Of a stretch of DNA of 64,000 bases, positions 11,375 through 52,664 are shown piece after piece (within the stretch, counting starts at the first letter, position 1; each line of letters begins with the position of its first letter). Source of the DNA: Octopus vulgaris (taxonomy: Eukaryota); contig OX597814.1 of the NCBI GenBank assembly GCA_951406725.2, forward strand, positions 141,112,001-141,176,000, given 5' to 3'. Position numbers and translations under genes: made by a program. Under the pieces are notes generated by a model that did no database searches, was not told the DNA's origin, and saw nothing but the letters and a program-made list of their open reading frames with translations.

Positions 11375-11438
11375 TAAAGTGACCAATGGTTTCACATCCA
11401 CAAAGCGCTTAGACTTATAGACGATTCGTCAAACTCCA
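11375..11438 (-). ncRNA. Type I hammerhead ribozyme fold, PLE-type, C3U core variant
   Basis: Minus strand: TGGAGT-TTGACGA-A(T)CGTCTATAAG..TTTGTGGATGT-GAAA-CCATTG-GTC-ACTTTA; stem III ACCATTGGT, GUC cleavage triplet. Confidence 0.6.
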
Positions 11439-11779
11439 ATGACCGCTTTATTGATTCGAAACCATTGGTCACTCTATGACCAACCATATAATTAGCAACC
11501 ATATAATTAACTTCCAATAAATATATTACTAATCTAACGTTTAGAGTGTACTTCTATTTCGGATGTACAAACCGTTGACGTTGACGATATATATATATAT
11601 ATATATATATATATATGTAAATGTAAAAAAATACAAACTGGGACAAGAACGTGAAACATTTAGAAGACGATACAAAAAACACGGACGGGACATTCGAAGC
11701 CTTCAATCTTCAGTCAAGAACCGGACCATCTTCGCAATTTCGGCTGATATATATATATATATATATATATATATATACT

Positions 11780-12168
11780 CTTTTACTCTTTTACTTGTTT
11801 CAGTCATTTGACTGCGGCCATGCTAGAGCACCGCCTTTAGTCGAGAAAATCGACTCCAGGACTTATTCTTTGAGAGCCTAGTACTTATTCTATCGGTCTT
11901 TTTTGCCGAACCGCTAAGTTACGGAGACGTAAACACACCAGCATCGGTTGTCAAGTGATGTTGAGGGGCCAAACACAGACATACAAATACACACACACAC
12001 ACATATATATATACACATATATACGACGGGCTTCTTTCAGTTTCCGTCTACTAAATCCACTCACAAGGTTTTGGCCGGCTCGAGGCTATAGTAGAAGACA
12101 CTCGGCCCAAGGTGCCACGCAGTGGGACTGAACCCGGAACTACTTACCATAAAGCCACTCCTACGCCT
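11780..12168 (-). mobile_element. Family B CORE-like SINE, well preserved
   Basis: Minus strand head GGCGTAGGAGTGGC..TTCCGGGTTCAGTCCCACTGCGTGGCACCTTGGGCCGAGTGTCTTCTACTATAGCC, internal (TA)/(TG), tail GACTGAAACAAGTAAAAGAGTAAAAGAG. Confidence 0.9.
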
Positions 12169-12749
12169 ATATATATATATATATATATATATATATATAT
12201 ATATATATATATATATATATATATATATATATATATATATATATATATATGTATACATTTATGTACGCACCTATATGTGATAGTTTTGAAACTTATGGTC
12301 TTGAATAGATATTGCTTAAAATCAAGTGACCTAATAAAAAATATAATGGGGGAATCCAAAGCTAAAACTGATGGGTGTAAAATACCCAGTGTTCTTGCTA
12401 AAGAAGAGAAATTTACACTAAAGTGAATTCGTAACAGAAGTACTACCATGTAATAATAGAAGTCTTCGAAATATCGATTAGGTTCTCGACGCAGGAAGAA
12501 TATTGCAGTTTTAGAATATGGTAAAAATGTAGTTGCTCCGCCTCACAATGGAATTGCATGTTTTCTTTGATATCTTTATTTTTCACGTATATGTATGAAA
12601 TGAAAACATTATTTTGAGTTCTTATAAGAGTGAATGACACTAATTGAATAGAATGTTTATTGAGTAAAAAAAAGGAAAAAAAAAGAAAAAAACTACTTTC
12701 ATCTTTCATGCGGATATTTTTTCTTCCTTACACCGTATTTGTTTCAGTC

Positions 12750-13240
12750 TACATACATACATACATACATACATACATACATACATACATACATACATAT
12801 ATATATACATATATATATATATGAATATATATGTATATATAATATATAAATGCATACATACATATATATATATGCATATATACATACGTATATATGCATA
12901 TATATATATATATATATATATATATATATATACATACAAACATACATACAAACATATATATAATATATACATGCATATATATATATTATATATATATATA
13001 TAAATACATAAATATACATCTACACACATACATATATACATATTGATATACATATCTATATAAGTGTATACATACATACATATATATAGACTTATATATA
13101 TACATACACACACATATATGTGTATATATATACATATACATATACATACATACATACATACATACATACATACATACATACAAATATATATATATATATA
13201 TATATATATATATATATATATATATATATATGCATACATA
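12750..13240. repeat. Compound (ACAT)n/(TA)n microsatellite
   Basis: Direct; source of the spurious YI/VCMY ORFs. Confidence 0.95.
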
Positions 13241-13532
13241 CTGGTTTCTTTGATGAATTAGTTGAAGACAACTTTAAAGAACAGCAGACGGTGTTCGTAT
13301 TGGAAACGACACGAGAATAATATCAAAGTGAAGTATAACAATTGGTAAAGAAGGAGTAAGGCGCATAATGGGAAAACTCAGGTGTGTTAATGGTAGTTGC
13401 GGAATAGAAGTAAGAAATAGAACGATATTATTCTTTATCACGTTTCGAAAAATATTCATGTTTCTTTTTTGTTGTCAAACTCAATGAAAAAAAAAGCAAC
13501 AAAAACTACGGCATTACAAGAAGCAGCGGCAG

Positions 13533-13680
13533 TAATAATGATAATAATAATAATAATAATAATAATAATAATAATAATAATAATAATAATAATAATAATA
13601 ATAATAATGATAATAATAATAATAATAATAATAATAATAATAATAATAATAATAATAATAATAATAACAACAACAACAAC
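13533..13680. repeat. (TAA)n/(CAA)n microsatellite
   Basis: Direct. Confidence 0.95.
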
Positions 13681-49743: not shown

Positions 49744-49837
49744 TCTCTCCGATGATAGTATATTCAACTTATGGAATCTTCGCTCGACACGTTGTTTCAA
49801 TAGCTAGCTAGAATATTCTAGAAACAGCTGTCAGAGA
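49744..49837 (+). ncRNA. Type I hammerhead ribozyme fold, U4C core variant
   Basis: TCTCT-CCGATGA-TAGTATATTC..GAATATTCTA-GAAA-CAGCT-GTC-AGAGA; palindromic stem III ACAGCTGT, GUC triplet. Confidence 0.7.
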
Positions 49838-50150
49838 CTATCTAAACCGTTTATTATATAGTTAGATTAAATGTTCTTGTCAAGTCTTGCCAAACTGCTT
49901 GCCTTTTTCTTCTCTGCTTTAATATGTGTACACACACACACACACACACACACACACACACACACACACACACACACACACAAACACGGGGAGTTGCTGT
50001 GTGTTAAGTAGCTTGCTTACTAACCACATGATTCCGAGTTCAGTTCCACTGCTTGGCACCTTGGGCAAGTGTTTTCTACAGAAGCCTCGGGCCGACCAAA
50101 GCCTTGTGAGTGGATTTGGTTGACGGAAACTGAAAAAAGTCCGTCGTTTA

Positions 50151-50840
50151 TCTATATATATAAAACTCAGCTTGTGTGTCTGTGTGTGTATCTGTGTGTG
50201 TATCTGTGTGTGTCTGTGTGTTTAACTTCCCGGCACATCTCCTCCTAGCCAACAAATCGTAGAACCACCAAAAATGGGTCACTTAAAGTTTAGACGAATG
50301 AAAATTGAACTGCGTTATTTCTGTTCCGAAATTCATCTCGCAAATGCAAAAATCGATAATGTGTTTGTTTAGGCCTTATCCAATGCATTGAATTGTGAAC
50401 TTTACTTAGTCAGCTGTTTGACGTGAACTGTGTTCACCACGCGTGCAAGCATGCGTAAATTGCATGAAAAAAAAAAAATCAAGATATAAAAACGAATCGC
50501 CGTAAACATTGTAGAAATTCAGCAAAGAAATGAATTTTCGGGATGTAGCCTGGAGGGTTTTTTCGTATTAATCGTTTGGACTTTGTGAACACATAACAAT
50601 TGTTTTCATAAAATTTTTAACGCTTTGAAATAAATGTGACCATTTTGCGTTGAGTCTGCAATTTGAATCACTTTAACCAAATTTTAGCAGGCCGGATTTT
50701 TGATCATCACGATACATCGCCAGCGACTCCCTGAAACTCTCCCCTGAAATCCCCGTTGAGAAATCTATATATATATAACTCAACTTGTGTGTCTGTGTGT
50801 GTATCTGTGTGTGTGTCTGTGTGTTTAACTTTTGGATCTA
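50151..50840 (+). mobile_element. Helitron-like 5' segments, two tandem starts (50151, 50764)
   Basis: A|TCTATATATATA(TA)AAACTCA.CTTGTGTGTCTGTGTG occurs twice; no 3' CTAG hairpin seen. Confidence 0.6.
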
Positions 50841-50881
50841 CCAAGTTTCATTATTAAGGATGGAAAGTAGTGTGTAGCAAA

Positions 50882-51278
50882 TCTATATATATATATATAA
50901 AGCAGAAGTTGTTTTTTGTGTGGCAGGTTTGGTAGCCTTCAACTAACACTATCTCCTTCGAGACCCTGCAGTGCAAATTGACCAAAATTGAGAGTATGAT
51001 AGAAGAAGGCTTACTCTTCATTCTGTAGAAGATGACATTCAAATCGGACCATGTTAACACCAAAAATTATTTACATCAAAAAAGTGCTTTTTTTCTATGA
51101 AAATCTCTATTTATTTACGATTTTTGACTGCTGTGTCACCATTTTTCGGTGTATTTCAACTGGAAAAATGTTCACTTGAAGAGAATAACAAGTTGCATAA
51201 TGCAAAAGTTTTACTTTTCAAAAATTCAAATTCTAAAGGGTCGAAACAAACCCAAGCAACACCGGGTGATACTGCTAG
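50882..51278 (+). mobile_element. Complete short non-autonomous Helitron (397 bp)
   Basis: A|TCTATATA.. 5' end; 3' hairpin ACCCAAGCAACACCGGGT then CTAG|T; sister copy at 60327-60704 (-). Confidence 0.85.
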
Positions 51279-51360
51279 TGTATATGTATATATATATATA
51301 TATATATATATATATATATATATATATATATATATATATATATATATATATATATATATT

Positions 51361-52664
51361 ATGTGAAATAGAAAGATGAATAATCTTGTAGCAGATTAAT
51401 CAAAAGTTTAACCGATACCTAGGTAGCAAAAATCACAGCAGAAGACAGCACGGTTGGAGGTACAACCATATGGTGTTGCAACCGTGCGTTGGTGCGGATA
51501 ATTGAATTTTAATATTATTGGTGAATTGAAGAAATGGAGCTGAACGAAGATTGAACAGAAATCGTTTTATTTCATTCTACACGTGTTTCGAAAGGCACAA
51601 TTTACCAAAATCCGATTGAATAATGAGACCATATTGTGTCTTTCTCTTCAAGAAGAAATAGGAAATCCGTTGGAAAAAACAAAAACAGAACAGAGGCGGA
51701 GCAAAACAAATCGAACTAGGCTCCTAAGAGCCCATGGCAAAACTGTTTATCAGTGTAAGTTGAGAACCGGTGGTTGAAGATTTTAACGGGTCAGGCAGCG
51801 GTCATTCCTGTGGGTGAGGGTATGTAGATGTTCTTTGTGACCGGGAATAAAGTTCTGACTATTTAAGGAATATTGGATGTATTATAAGGGGCGAGAAAAA
51901 ATCTACTTAGAGACATGTGTGTGTTTACTGTTCTATATATGTGTGCTGGCGCAGGTTGGCAAGAACTCCGTCAAGGGGTAGAAAACATTTTTTGTGTACG
52001 TGTGTGCGTTTGATCGCTCGGCTGTCAGTTATTAAGCAGCTCTACCCAATGGCTACTGCAGTAAAAACCGTTGGGTGGCAGAAAAATATTTTATGTTTTA
52101 TGTGTGCGTGTGTTCGTCTAATCATGCCTTGTCAAAGAAACCCCCCGTCGTCAAAAACAAAGCCCCGTTTATCTTACAGGAGTAATTCCCCTTGCAGTGG
52201 TTAATCGTAATTATCTTAAAGGCTATTTCAGGGGGAGGTTAGTTCTAATCTGCTTACCATGGTTTGTAATTCCCTTTGGTAAGCAGATTAGAACTAACCT
52301 CCCCTCATGTTTAGACAAGCCATCGCCAATAACTTCCCCAGAAATTCCAAATATTACTCCACGGTTAACTCGCATAAAGTTAGGATAGCTTTCTCCAACA
52401 CTAAAAACCTCGCCCAGATAATCGCCTCCCATAATAATAGGCTGCTTACTAAGACCCGATCACCTTTTTCCGGAGGCACAGCCTCTTCCGCTCCCGGTTT
52501 AATGCTCAGTAGGAATAATTATAGTAGTAATAATGATATGAGAGCCAGTACAGTGACTCATAATCTCAGCTCCAGCCAGGGATTACACACTAGGAGTATA
52601 GTTATAAATAGGGGTGTTGTAGTTGACGGTAACAATGGGAGTAGGGTAATATAATTCACCAATT
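51361..52664. mobile_element. Penelope-like insertion: inverted pseudo-LTR (-) joined to an ORF linker fragment (+)
   Basis: Plus-strand WFVIPFGKQIRTNLP/MFRQAIANNFPRNSKYYSTVNSHKVRIAFSNTKNLAQIIASHNNRLL matches the PLE RT-to-GIY-YIG linker (WFNPP....V.TN....F...FP......IFN...VKVSYS...N...II..HN); minus-strand HHR; (TA)n on both sides. Confidence 0.85.
51569..51659 (-). ncRNA. Type I hammerhead ribozyme fold, C3U core variant
   Basis: Minus strand: ATTTCTTC-TTGAAGA-GAAAGACACAAT..ATTGTGCCTTTC-GAAA-CACGT-GTA-GAATGAAAT; 12-position stem II with one mismatch, palindromic ACACGTGT, followed by AATAAA. Confidence 0.75.

What the first reader, a model, noticed from the sequence alone, without database searches (positions are those of the whole stretch)
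11375..51659. A set of type I hammerhead ribozymes with long stem II and different palindromic stems III in (TA)n-associated Penelope-type inserts
Seen: four motifs with unrelated stems but one topology: stem I, CUGANGA, long stem II with a large loop, GAAA, self-complementary stem III (ACCATTGGT, ACAATTGT, ACAGCTGT, ACACGTGT), GUH, stem I. Different sequences keeping the same pairing argue against chance. Known: PLE pseudo-LTRs carry minimal type I HHRs whose palindromic stem III allows cleavage as dimers, and non-autonomous retrozymes use HHRs to make circular RNAs. Inference: several distinct PLE or retrozyme-like families with an unusually extended stem II are abundant here. I cannot confirm whether this variant has been described in cephalopods.
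Basis: partly seen in the sequence, partly recalled or inferred. Interest (0 to 1): 0.8.

Follow-up and report, generated by a model that had tools for sequence, protein, structure and literature searches.

The report
Long-armed hammerheads of octopus retrotransposons
Four unrelated repeats in what is likely octopus DNA carry hammerhead-ribozyme motifs, likely the leftover ends of Penelope-like jumping genes, a known pairing; here three have an arm about two to three times longer than in relatives, and two spreading families appear to carry an altered catalytic core, which would offer a test of whether these elements need to cut themselves.

Summary
All four motifs are real: 4 hits against a mean of 0.07 in shuffles, 0 of 500 as high. 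Corrections: only one has an intact CUGANGA core, two read UUGANGA and one CCGAUGA. Spacers from A9 to G12 are 32, 77, 65 and 55 nt, so motif 1 is barely long. Their 4-bp palindromic stems III match published Hydra-clade Penelope hammerheads, including one from Octopus bimaculoides. Motif 4 lies in an insertion with a Hydra-type RT fragment (E 3e-13). In 51 hammerheads of Hydra-like elements from metagenomes the spacer is 10-29 nt, so the long arm is a real departure; about 50-nt arms are already printed for two spike-moss elements. Contigs show that motifs 3 and 4 belong to repeat families. In family 3, majority letters restore the long stem. U3·G8 is the majority core in family 4, and C4 probably in family 3. 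Folding predicts cleavage only as dimers. Cleavage is untested and these copies are likely fossils. The scan reported long-armed Hydra hammerheads before, on other DNA of this and other genomes. Verdict: new variant of a known kind, interest 0.42.

The parts
11375..11438 (-). m1 hammerhead: stem I 6 bp, core UUGACGA 11432-11426 (U3·G8), 32-nt spacer, GAA 11393-11391, stem III ACCAUUGGU, cut after C11381
11350..11586 (.). m1 host: 237-bp piece between two (TA)n arrays; fold-back 11357-11494 (71%) with an inverted second copy of the 3' half of the motif; predicted to bury the ribozyme in one long hairpin
   Evidence: -71.7 kcal/mol
33455..33562 (-). m2 hammerhead: stem I 6 bp, intact core CUGAGGA 33556-33550, 77-nt spacer with predicted inner helices, stem III ACAAUUGU, cut after A33461
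33266..33826 (-). m2 host: about 560-bp piece between (TA)n arrays, internal 53-bp direct repeat (33768-33820 / 33587-33639, 91%), no coding remnant found
49744..49837 (+). m3 hammerhead: stem I 5 bp, core CCGAUGA 49749-49755 (C4), 65-nt spacer, stem III ACAGCUGU, cut after C49832
49690..49907 (+). m3 host: diverged repeat family; extent from contig cover and loose ends
51569..51659 (-). m4 hammerhead: stem I 8 bp with one bulge, core UUGAAGA 51651-51645 (U3·G8), 55-nt spacer with 11-bp base stem, stem III ACACGUGU, cut after A51578
51360..52231 (-). 3' part of the m4 element: possible decayed linker and endonuclease region (not significant), 3' UTR, hammerhead, 210-nt tail to (TA)n; high-copy family
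52232..52304 (.). fold-back junction (84% inverted repeat) where other family copies continue with different sequence
   Evidence: loose ends at 52231 and 52259
52259..52655 (+). inverted upstream part of the m4 insertion: Hydra-type RT thumb fragment (52260-52462) plus low-complexity linker, ending at (TA)n 52664-52722
   Evidence: (iE 2.9e-13)

Best explanation
The four motifs are type I hammerhead-shaped sequences in four unrelated insertions, likely the 3' ends (pseudo-LTRs) of Hydra-clade Penelope-like retrotransposons or their non-coding derivatives, and they are predicted to cut the parent RNA only when two copies pair through the palindromic stem III. Shown: the motifs; their non-random occurrence; repeat-family status of m3 and m4; a Hydra-type RT fragment in the m4 insertion; a fold-back in m1 and m4; (TA)n flanks. 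Inferred: the element's GIY-YIG nuclease nicks (TA)n, and RT copies from the RNA 3' end, often stopping early or switching template, which leaves short or inverted stubs. In a tandem transcript two pLTR hammerheads exchange strands, form an 8-bp helix III and cut at GUH to give unit-length RNA, perhaps with help from the element's protein. Stem II points away from the core, so it could grow to 55-77 nt as long as its base stayed paired. The copies in this window are solitary and are likely inactive fossils. The m3 and m4 families would cut weakly at best because of C4 and U3·G8.
For: Shuffle test 0 of 500. Stem III matches Hydra-clade entries of PMC8557442 File S2: acca-a-tggt (Hydra-1_oBim) for m1, acaa-gt-ttgt for m2, acag-tt-ctgt for m3, acac-a-gtgt for m4. 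All Hydra families but one in File S1 list (TA)n preference. The + strand piece 52298-52462 finds P0004 at 81% and 13 more proteins. A profile of 19 such proteins, whose full-length members carry the RW and ADKT motifs of Hydra elements, hits 52307-52462 at iE 2.9e-13. In 78 Hydra-like metagenome loci, 66 gave a hammerhead hit; 51 of 53 distinct hits have an exact core and 8-10-nt palindromic stem III. m4 stretch: 2058, 384, 420 and 7 contigs laid in four runs; depth peaks over the hammerhead and tapers upstream; junction loose ends at 52231 and 52259. m3: majority letters raise stem II from 11 to 13 of 14 pairs, with one two-sided change (U-A to C-G); -17.7 against -6.1 kcal/mol; 85 of 5000 random-placement controls as low. 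Stem III alone gives no hairpin (0.0) but self-duplexes of -6.4 to -11.1 kcal/mol. With the core held open, dimers adopt the double-hammerhead fold for m1, m2, m4 and for majority m3, 10-14 kcal/mol below two monomers. For the fifth motif, 82-94% of depth in four runs restores a perfect palindrome.
Against: Three of four cores are non-canonical, and for m4 (and probably m3) this is the family state rather than decay of the copy. No endonuclease remnant reaches significance upstream of m4 (4 of 60 shuffles as high) and no coding remnant was found next to m1-m3, so their clade rests on motif design and flanks. A covariance model from 23 short-armed Hydra hammerheads misses m1-m3 at E up to 10 and gives m4 only E 0.22. 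The dimer folds were obtained with the core forced unpaired; the free folds of m1-m3 pair the core. The m3 majority stem holds only 7 of the 14 pairs in its own lowest-energy fold, and the pairing register was chosen after seeing the variants. In an Anolis Penelope element, hammerhead mutants did not affect insertion in vitro and no reads ended at the cut site (PMC11167929, passages). No cleavage or expression data.
Confidence: 0.6

Rival explanations
1. Same origin, but catalysis no longer matters in several families: the fold is kept as a pairing or protein-binding scaffold for the element's RT, so non-canonical cores can spread.
For: m4 family: no A>G row at 51651 at 20% or more in X1, X2 or X4, and all A>G places counted in table 1 (3, 2, 2) are other rows; 1493 of 2058 X1 contigs are 95% or more alike, so a family with U3·G8 spread recently. 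m3 family: no row at 49750 among the 40 shown, while stem II is kept paired. None of 51 clear outside hammerheads has either change. Hammerhead mutants do not block insertion in vitro (PMC11167929, passages).
Against: GAAA, A15.1-U16.1, GUH and both other core halves stay intact. U4C is reported to lower activity yet still support viroid infectivity (PMC3088659, passage). One X2 contig end shows the C3 form of the m4 family. 92 variant rows for the m3 stretch were hidden.
Confidence: 0.27
2. Some of the pieces (m2, m3) are non-LTR retrozymes: protein-free tandem units that cut as dimers and circularise.
For: No coding remnant near m1-m3; sizes of 220-560 bp lie in the retrozyme range (bioRxiv 10.64898/2026.07.22.740005, parts 1-2 of 5 read), which also argues that retrozymes derive from pLTRs.
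Against: No tandem unit holds any motif. No go-back joint is shown for the m3 family (15 of 69 joints shown). m4 carries RT-coding DNA and a 5' inversion.
Confidence: 0.08
3. They are the 'half-core' hammerheads of cephalopod Naiad elements, missed earlier because of the long spacer.
For: PMC8557442 notes eight Naiads with the second half of the core 35-50 nt away, including Naiad_Ovul and Naiad_Esco, with (TA)n preference.
Against: None of the four GAA+stem III strings occurs in that paper's supplement (line breaks could hide a hit). The RT fragment at m4 is Hydra-type. Stem III design matches Hydra entries.
Confidence: 0.04
4. Chance matches in AT-rich repetitive DNA.
For: Cores have mismatches; single folds are not unusually stable; Rfam and my own model miss them. 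The m1 core lies next to the centre of a fold-back and could partly be a mirror of its stem II strand.
Against: 0 of 500 shuffles reach 4 hits; family variants restore pairing.
Confidence: 0.01

Closest known systems
Hammerheads of Hydra-clade Penelope-like elements, including Hydra-1_oBim of Octopus bimaculoides (Craig et al. 2021, PMC8557442; passages, Files S1 and S2 and part of S7 read)
   Same: Type I topology, 4-bp self-complementary stem III starting AC and ending GU, frequent mismatch or extra base at the foot of stem II, position near the 3' end, (TA)n targets, inverted 5'-truncated pieces.
   Different: Spacer of 55-77 nt in m2-m4, against at most 26 nt in the 26 Hydra rows of File S2 (my count; 23 in Hydra-1_oBim) and 10-29 nt in 51 metagenome examples. 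U3·G8 and C4 cores, absent from those sets.
Minimal and palindromic-helix-III hammerheads of metazoan PLEs (Cervera and de la Pena 2014, PMC4209133; parts 1-2 of 4 read. Lunse et al. 2017 not held, known only from a review, PMC6765202, passages)
   Same: Dimer-dependent design, helix II larger than canonical (7-8 bp), many unrelated families per genome, low predicted activity.
   Different: Their helix II is much shorter; their core variant is the compensated U3-A8, not the U3·G8 wobble or C4.
Long-loop hammerheads of spike-moss PLE-X1_sMoe and PLE-X1_sTam (PMC8557442 File S2, marked as deviating)
   Same: PLE hammerheads with spacers of about 54 and 48 nt (my count), so a long stem II in a PLE is not without precedent.
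   Different: Plant, endonuclease-less, 28S rDNA-targeted elements without the Hydra-type 4-bp palindrome.
Metazoan non-LTR retrozymes (PMC7229834, passages; bioRxiv 10.64898/2026.07.22.740005, parts 1-2 of 5)
   Same: Type I hammerheads in short non-coding repeats, dimer cleavage, proposed PLE origin.
   Different: No tandem units here; m4 has coding remnants; no circular RNA shown.
PAc (Poseidon) hammerhead of Anolis (PMC11167929, passages)
   Same: pLTR hammerhead, AT-rich target; the only in vitro PLE system I found.
   Different: Other clade; shown to be protein-assisted and dispensable for insertion in vitro, which is untested here.

Membership tests
Type I hammerhead ribozyme | Core C3 U4 G5 A6 N7 G8 A9 with C3-G8 (or U3-A8) pair | tested here: not met
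   Met only in m2; m1 and m4 have U3·G8, m3 has C4. Family-level in m4, probably in m3.
Type I hammerhead ribozyme | G12 A13 A14, A15.1-U16.1 pair, H17 | tested here: met
   4 of 4
Type I hammerhead ribozyme | Three helices round the core, stem I open | tested here: met
   Pairing present in 4 of 4; predicted fold in dimers with core held open; free monomer folds of m1-m3 differ.
Type I hammerhead ribozyme | Loop 1 - loop 2 tertiary contact or pseudoknot | tested here: inconclusive
   Only a rough duplex scan of spacer against flanks, without control
Type I hammerhead ribozyme | Match to an Rfam hammerhead model | tested here: not met
   No hammerhead among 137 matches at E up to 5
Type I hammerhead ribozyme | Self-cleavage at NUH | not testable with these tools
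   Needs an assay; runs were contigs only
Hydra-clade PLE | RT related to Hydra elements | tested here: met
   m4 only: thumb fragment iE 2.9e-13, 81% to P0004; nothing near m1-m3
Hydra-clade PLE | RWK and DKT motifs in the N-terminal part | not testable with these tools
   That part is absent from the window copy
Hydra-clade PLE | C-terminal GIY-YIG endonuclease without CCHH | tested here: inconclusive
   Motif-like scraps at the expected distance upstream of m4 (seen by eye), but HMM negative and frameshift-tolerant score reached by 4 of 60 shuffles
Hydra-clade PLE | Hammerhead with 4-bp palindromic stem III near the 3' end | tested here: met
Hydra-clade PLE | Short stem II region as in described members | tested here: not met
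   55-77 nt in m2-m4 against 10-29 nt; model R1 misses m1-m3
Hydra-clade PLE | (TA)n insertion preference | tested here: met
   3 of 4 within 250 nt, background 8.4%; m3 family loose ends run into TA
Hydra-clade PLE | Partial tandem (pLTR) or inverted 5'-truncated copy | tested here: inconclusive
   Inversions in m1 and m4; no direct pLTR pair in the window
Non-LTR retrozyme | Head-to-tail units each with a hammerhead | tested here: not met
   window only
Non-LTR retrozyme | Circular RNA | not testable with these tools
   No RNA holder listed
Naiad PLE | N-terminal endonuclease, CxC, DKA; sequence like cephalopod Naiad ends | tested here: inconclusive
   No motif hit in the Naiad consensus file; no Naiad profile was run on the window

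The most novel reading that the evidence does not exclude
Octopus Hydra-type retroelements have evolved a long-armed hammerhead class in which spreading families fix cores that should barely cut (U3·G8, C4) while keeping a 12-13-bp extended stem II and the palindrome. The long arm either docks the element's own protein and rescues the weak core, or the fold has become an RNA-pairing scaffold for reverse transcription rather than a ribozyme.
Probability: 0.2. Interest if true: 0.7.

Novelty: new variant of a known kind. Interest (0 to 1): 0.42.

Why it matters
The role of hammerheads in Penelope-like elements is open: they are nearly universal in C-terminal-endonuclease clades, absent from Naiads, and dispensable for insertion in the one in vitro system. 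Families in one genome that differ in core (C3-G8, U3·G8, C4) and arm length, yet have all spread, would give matched natural constructs to ask whether cleavage is needed. The long arm also explains why Rfam and short-armed models miss these motifs, so hammerhead counts in cephalopod genomes may be too low, and 'lacks a canonical hammerhead' calls in other families may need a second look. The basic pairing of hammerhead and Hydra element is known, also in octopus.

Tried and rejected
No whole genome is held for this window, so no genome-wide count or alignment was possible. Rfam: no hammerhead. No RNA holder listed; this says nothing on expression. Contig lays covered only the m4 and m3 stretches; the m1 and m2 families are untested. 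Summed contig depth was not used as a copy number. Naiad origin: six GAA+stem III strings, four from the window and two guessed, gave 0 hits in the PMC8557442 supplement. A tandem trimer of the hammerheads at 49054, 49429 and 49749 was considered and rejected: no similarity beyond one 30-bp match, and contigs show separate families. Endonuclease upstream of m4: suggested by eye, not confirmed. Longer relatives of P0004: none. Exact long-armed pattern in the 78 metagenome loci: 0 of 78. In one search I set aside 2 of 53 distinct hits (L060, 71 nt; L077, 61 nt) as likely chance, because they have odd cores and 3-6-nt stems III; 12 of 78 loci gave no hit. Covariance model R1 from 23 of 56 extracted hammerheads (those with 10-nt stem III) did not find m1-m3. 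Sequence look-ups in earlier scan notes for m2, m3 and m4: nothing. Literature searches returned no paper on long-armed cephalopod hammerheads; the phrase 'extended stem II' scored 0 in all 20 papers listed. Lunse et al. 2017 is not held, and neither its text and supplements nor those of Cervera 2014 or the bioRxiv preprint were seen; they may list such variants. No activity figure for U3·G8 was found; that it weakens cleavage is recalled, not read.

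
Full report
Setting. The window is AT-rich, full of microsatellites and retroelement remnants. A GIY-YIG fragment at 29729-30175 matches proteins named Octopus bimaculoides at 74-76%, so the source is likely an octopus. No whole genome was available.

Observation. m1 (11438-11375, -): core UUGACGA, 32-nt spacer, stem III ACCAUUGGU, GUC. 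m2 (33562-33455, -): CUGAGGA, 77 nt, ACAAUUGU, GUA. m3 (49744-49837, +): CCGAUGA, 65 nt, ACAGCUGU, GUC. m4 (51659-51569, -): UUGAAGA, 55 nt, ACACGUGU, GUA. A scanner allowing one core mismatch returns exactly these four at spacer 30 or more and score 28 or more; 500 dinucleotide shuffles in 500-nt blocks give mean 0.066 and max 2. A stricter descriptor found 2 of the 4, and none with an exact core. Both were written after seeing the motifs. The four host pieces are unrelated in sequence. Rfam has no hammerhead among 137 matches, and single-copy folds are not unusually stable.

What they belong to. An earlier scan note pointed to the Hydra clade, which I then tested. File S2 of Craig et al. 2021 (PMC8557442) lists Hydra-clade hammerheads with 4-bp self-complementary stems III that match all four motifs up to the central 0-2 bases, among them Hydra-1_oBim from O. 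bimaculoides; File S1 gives (TA)n as their target. In the window, three of four cut sites have (TA)6 or more within 250 nt downstream, against 8.4% of positions. m4 lies in a 1.3-kb insertion between two (TA)n arrays. Its + strand part 52260-52462 encodes an RT-thumb fragment that finds P0004 at 81% and scores iE 2.9e-13 against a profile of 19 related proteins; the 15 full-length ones aligned carry RW and ADKT motifs as described for Hydra. Contigs show that other copies continue differently at 52231 and 52259, on either side of a fold-back. I read this as a 5' inversion, a structure the paper describes for PLEs; that the two halves come from one element is inferred. An endonuclease remnant upstream of m4 did not reach significance. 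m1 is also a fold-back (71%), predicted to bury its motif. No coding remnant lies next to m1-m3.

Is stem II really long? I fetched 78 Hydra-like loci from metagenomes. 66 gave a hit; of 53 distinct hits, 51 have an exact core and an 8-10-nt palindromic stem III, with spacers of 10-29 nt; the other 2 (61 and 71 nt) have odd cores and tiny stems III and were set aside. Stems I-III covary strongly in 23 of them. The 26 Hydra rows of File S2 reach at most 26 nt by my count. So 55-77 nt is a real departure. A model built from the short-armed set misses m1-m3 and gives m4 E 0.22. Precedent exists outside the clade: two spike-moss PLEs have spacers of about 54 and 48 nt, and eight Naiads have 'half cores' 35-50 nt apart.

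Family evidence. On the m4 stretch 2058, 384, 420 and 7 contigs were laid in runs X1, X2, X4, X9; depth peaks over the hammerhead and falls upstream; most contigs are 95% or more alike. Only two variants at 20% or more fall within the motif (51572 in stem I, 51610 in the loop), so covariation could not be tested. No C3 variant reaches 20% in the three informative runs, and all A>G places are accounted for; one contig end shows C3. U3·G8 is therefore the majority state. On 49400-49925, 806, 647, 461 and 634 contigs were laid and fall into two families. In the more diverged m3 family, seven majority letters take stem II from 11 to 13 of 14 pairs with one two-sided change; energy goes from -6.1 to -17.7 kcal/mol, matched by 85 of 5000 random placements. 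The register was chosen after seeing the variants, and only 7 of the 14 pairs appear in that lowest-energy fold. No U4 row is among the 40 shown, all of which reach about 40% in some run; 92 rows were hidden, so C4 as majority is probable but not proven. In the neighbouring family (core at 49429), 82-94% of depth restores a perfect 12-nt palindromic stem III. The m1 and m2 families were not examined.

Mechanism. Stem III alone forms no hairpin but self-pairs at -6.4 to -11.1 kcal/mol. With the core held open, dimers of m1, m2, m4 and majority m3 take the double-hammerhead fold, 10-14 kcal/mol below two monomers. This fits the dimer model for PLE hammerheads (PMC4209133, parts 1-2 read; PMC6765202, passages). 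I infer that parent elements cut tandem transcripts at GUH and are pasted into (TA)n by target-primed reverse transcription, leaving truncated or inverted stubs, and that stem II could lengthen because it points away from the core. The copies here are solitary and likely dead. Against a need for cleavage: hammerhead mutants of the Anolis element insert normally in vitro and that ribozyme needs protein (PMC11167929, passages). U4C is reported as weak but viable in a viroid (PMC3088659, section 8 and passages); that U3·G8 weakens cutting is recalled. Two families spreading with such cores keeps the scaffold rival alive (0.27).

Novelty. The pairing of hammerhead and Hydra element is known, also in octopus. 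I found no paper describing the long arm or family-level U3·G8 and C4 cores in cephalopods, but Lunse et al. 2017 and several supplements could not be read. Earlier unreviewed notes of this scan report long-armed Hydra hammerheads, C4 families and wobble cores on other DNA; they are not independent support. Strictly, m1, m3 and m4 fail the core test for membership as hammerhead ribozymes, though they are built like them and descend from them. Verdict: new variant of a known kind, interest 0.42.

Noticed in passing
window 49424-49485 (+), family about 49420-49656: Fifth hammerhead with intact core and 29-nt spacer; the family-majority A at 49471 gives a perfect 12-nt palindromic stem III; some contigs show go-back joints in this family. 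Weak, marginal similarity to a Hydra endonuclease just upstream.
   Followed up: partly
window 44585 (-), 49054 (+), 11713 (-): Three more CUGANGA...GAA motifs with short stem II and decayed stem I or III; 11713 sits in a 130-bp piece between (TA)n arrays next to m1.
   Followed up: partly
window 29650-31120 (-): Broken Penelope-like element of another clade (RT plus C-terminal GIY-YIG, 74-76% to O. bimaculoides proteins), ending at (TA)n; my scanner found no hammerhead at its 3' end.
   Followed up: partly
window 20486-22200 (-) and about 55690-56600 (+): Non-LTR retrotransposon remnants; the first has RVT_1 and zf-RVT Pfam hits.
   Followed up: partly
window 10809-11185: 376-bp fold-back (89%) ending at the (TA)n array beside m1; possibly another inverted retroelement end.
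   Followed up: no
window 10242-10797, 25952-26412, 43507-43797: Tandem arrays with units of 184 bp x3 (97%), 196 bp x2.4 and 146 bp x2; no hammerhead hit in them.
   Followed up: no
window 44666-44800 and about 20 other places: Abundant short interspersed repeat of about 135 bp, 73-88% alike.
   Followed up: no
PMC8557442 File S5, 3' ends of Naiad_Obim and Naiad_Ovul (not in the window): By eye, hammerhead pieces in rearranged order: a cut-site-like strand and GAAA lie upstream of CUGAUGA, with complementary stem I and stem III segments, but stem II does not close in that order. PMC10085705 passages mention no octopus or Penelope example.
   Followed up: partly
L001-L078: Hydra-like elements are common in marine and other metagenome contigs (495 confirmed stretches); 23 of 56 hammerheads have U·U at the foot of stem II and 25 have G-C.
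   Followed up: partly
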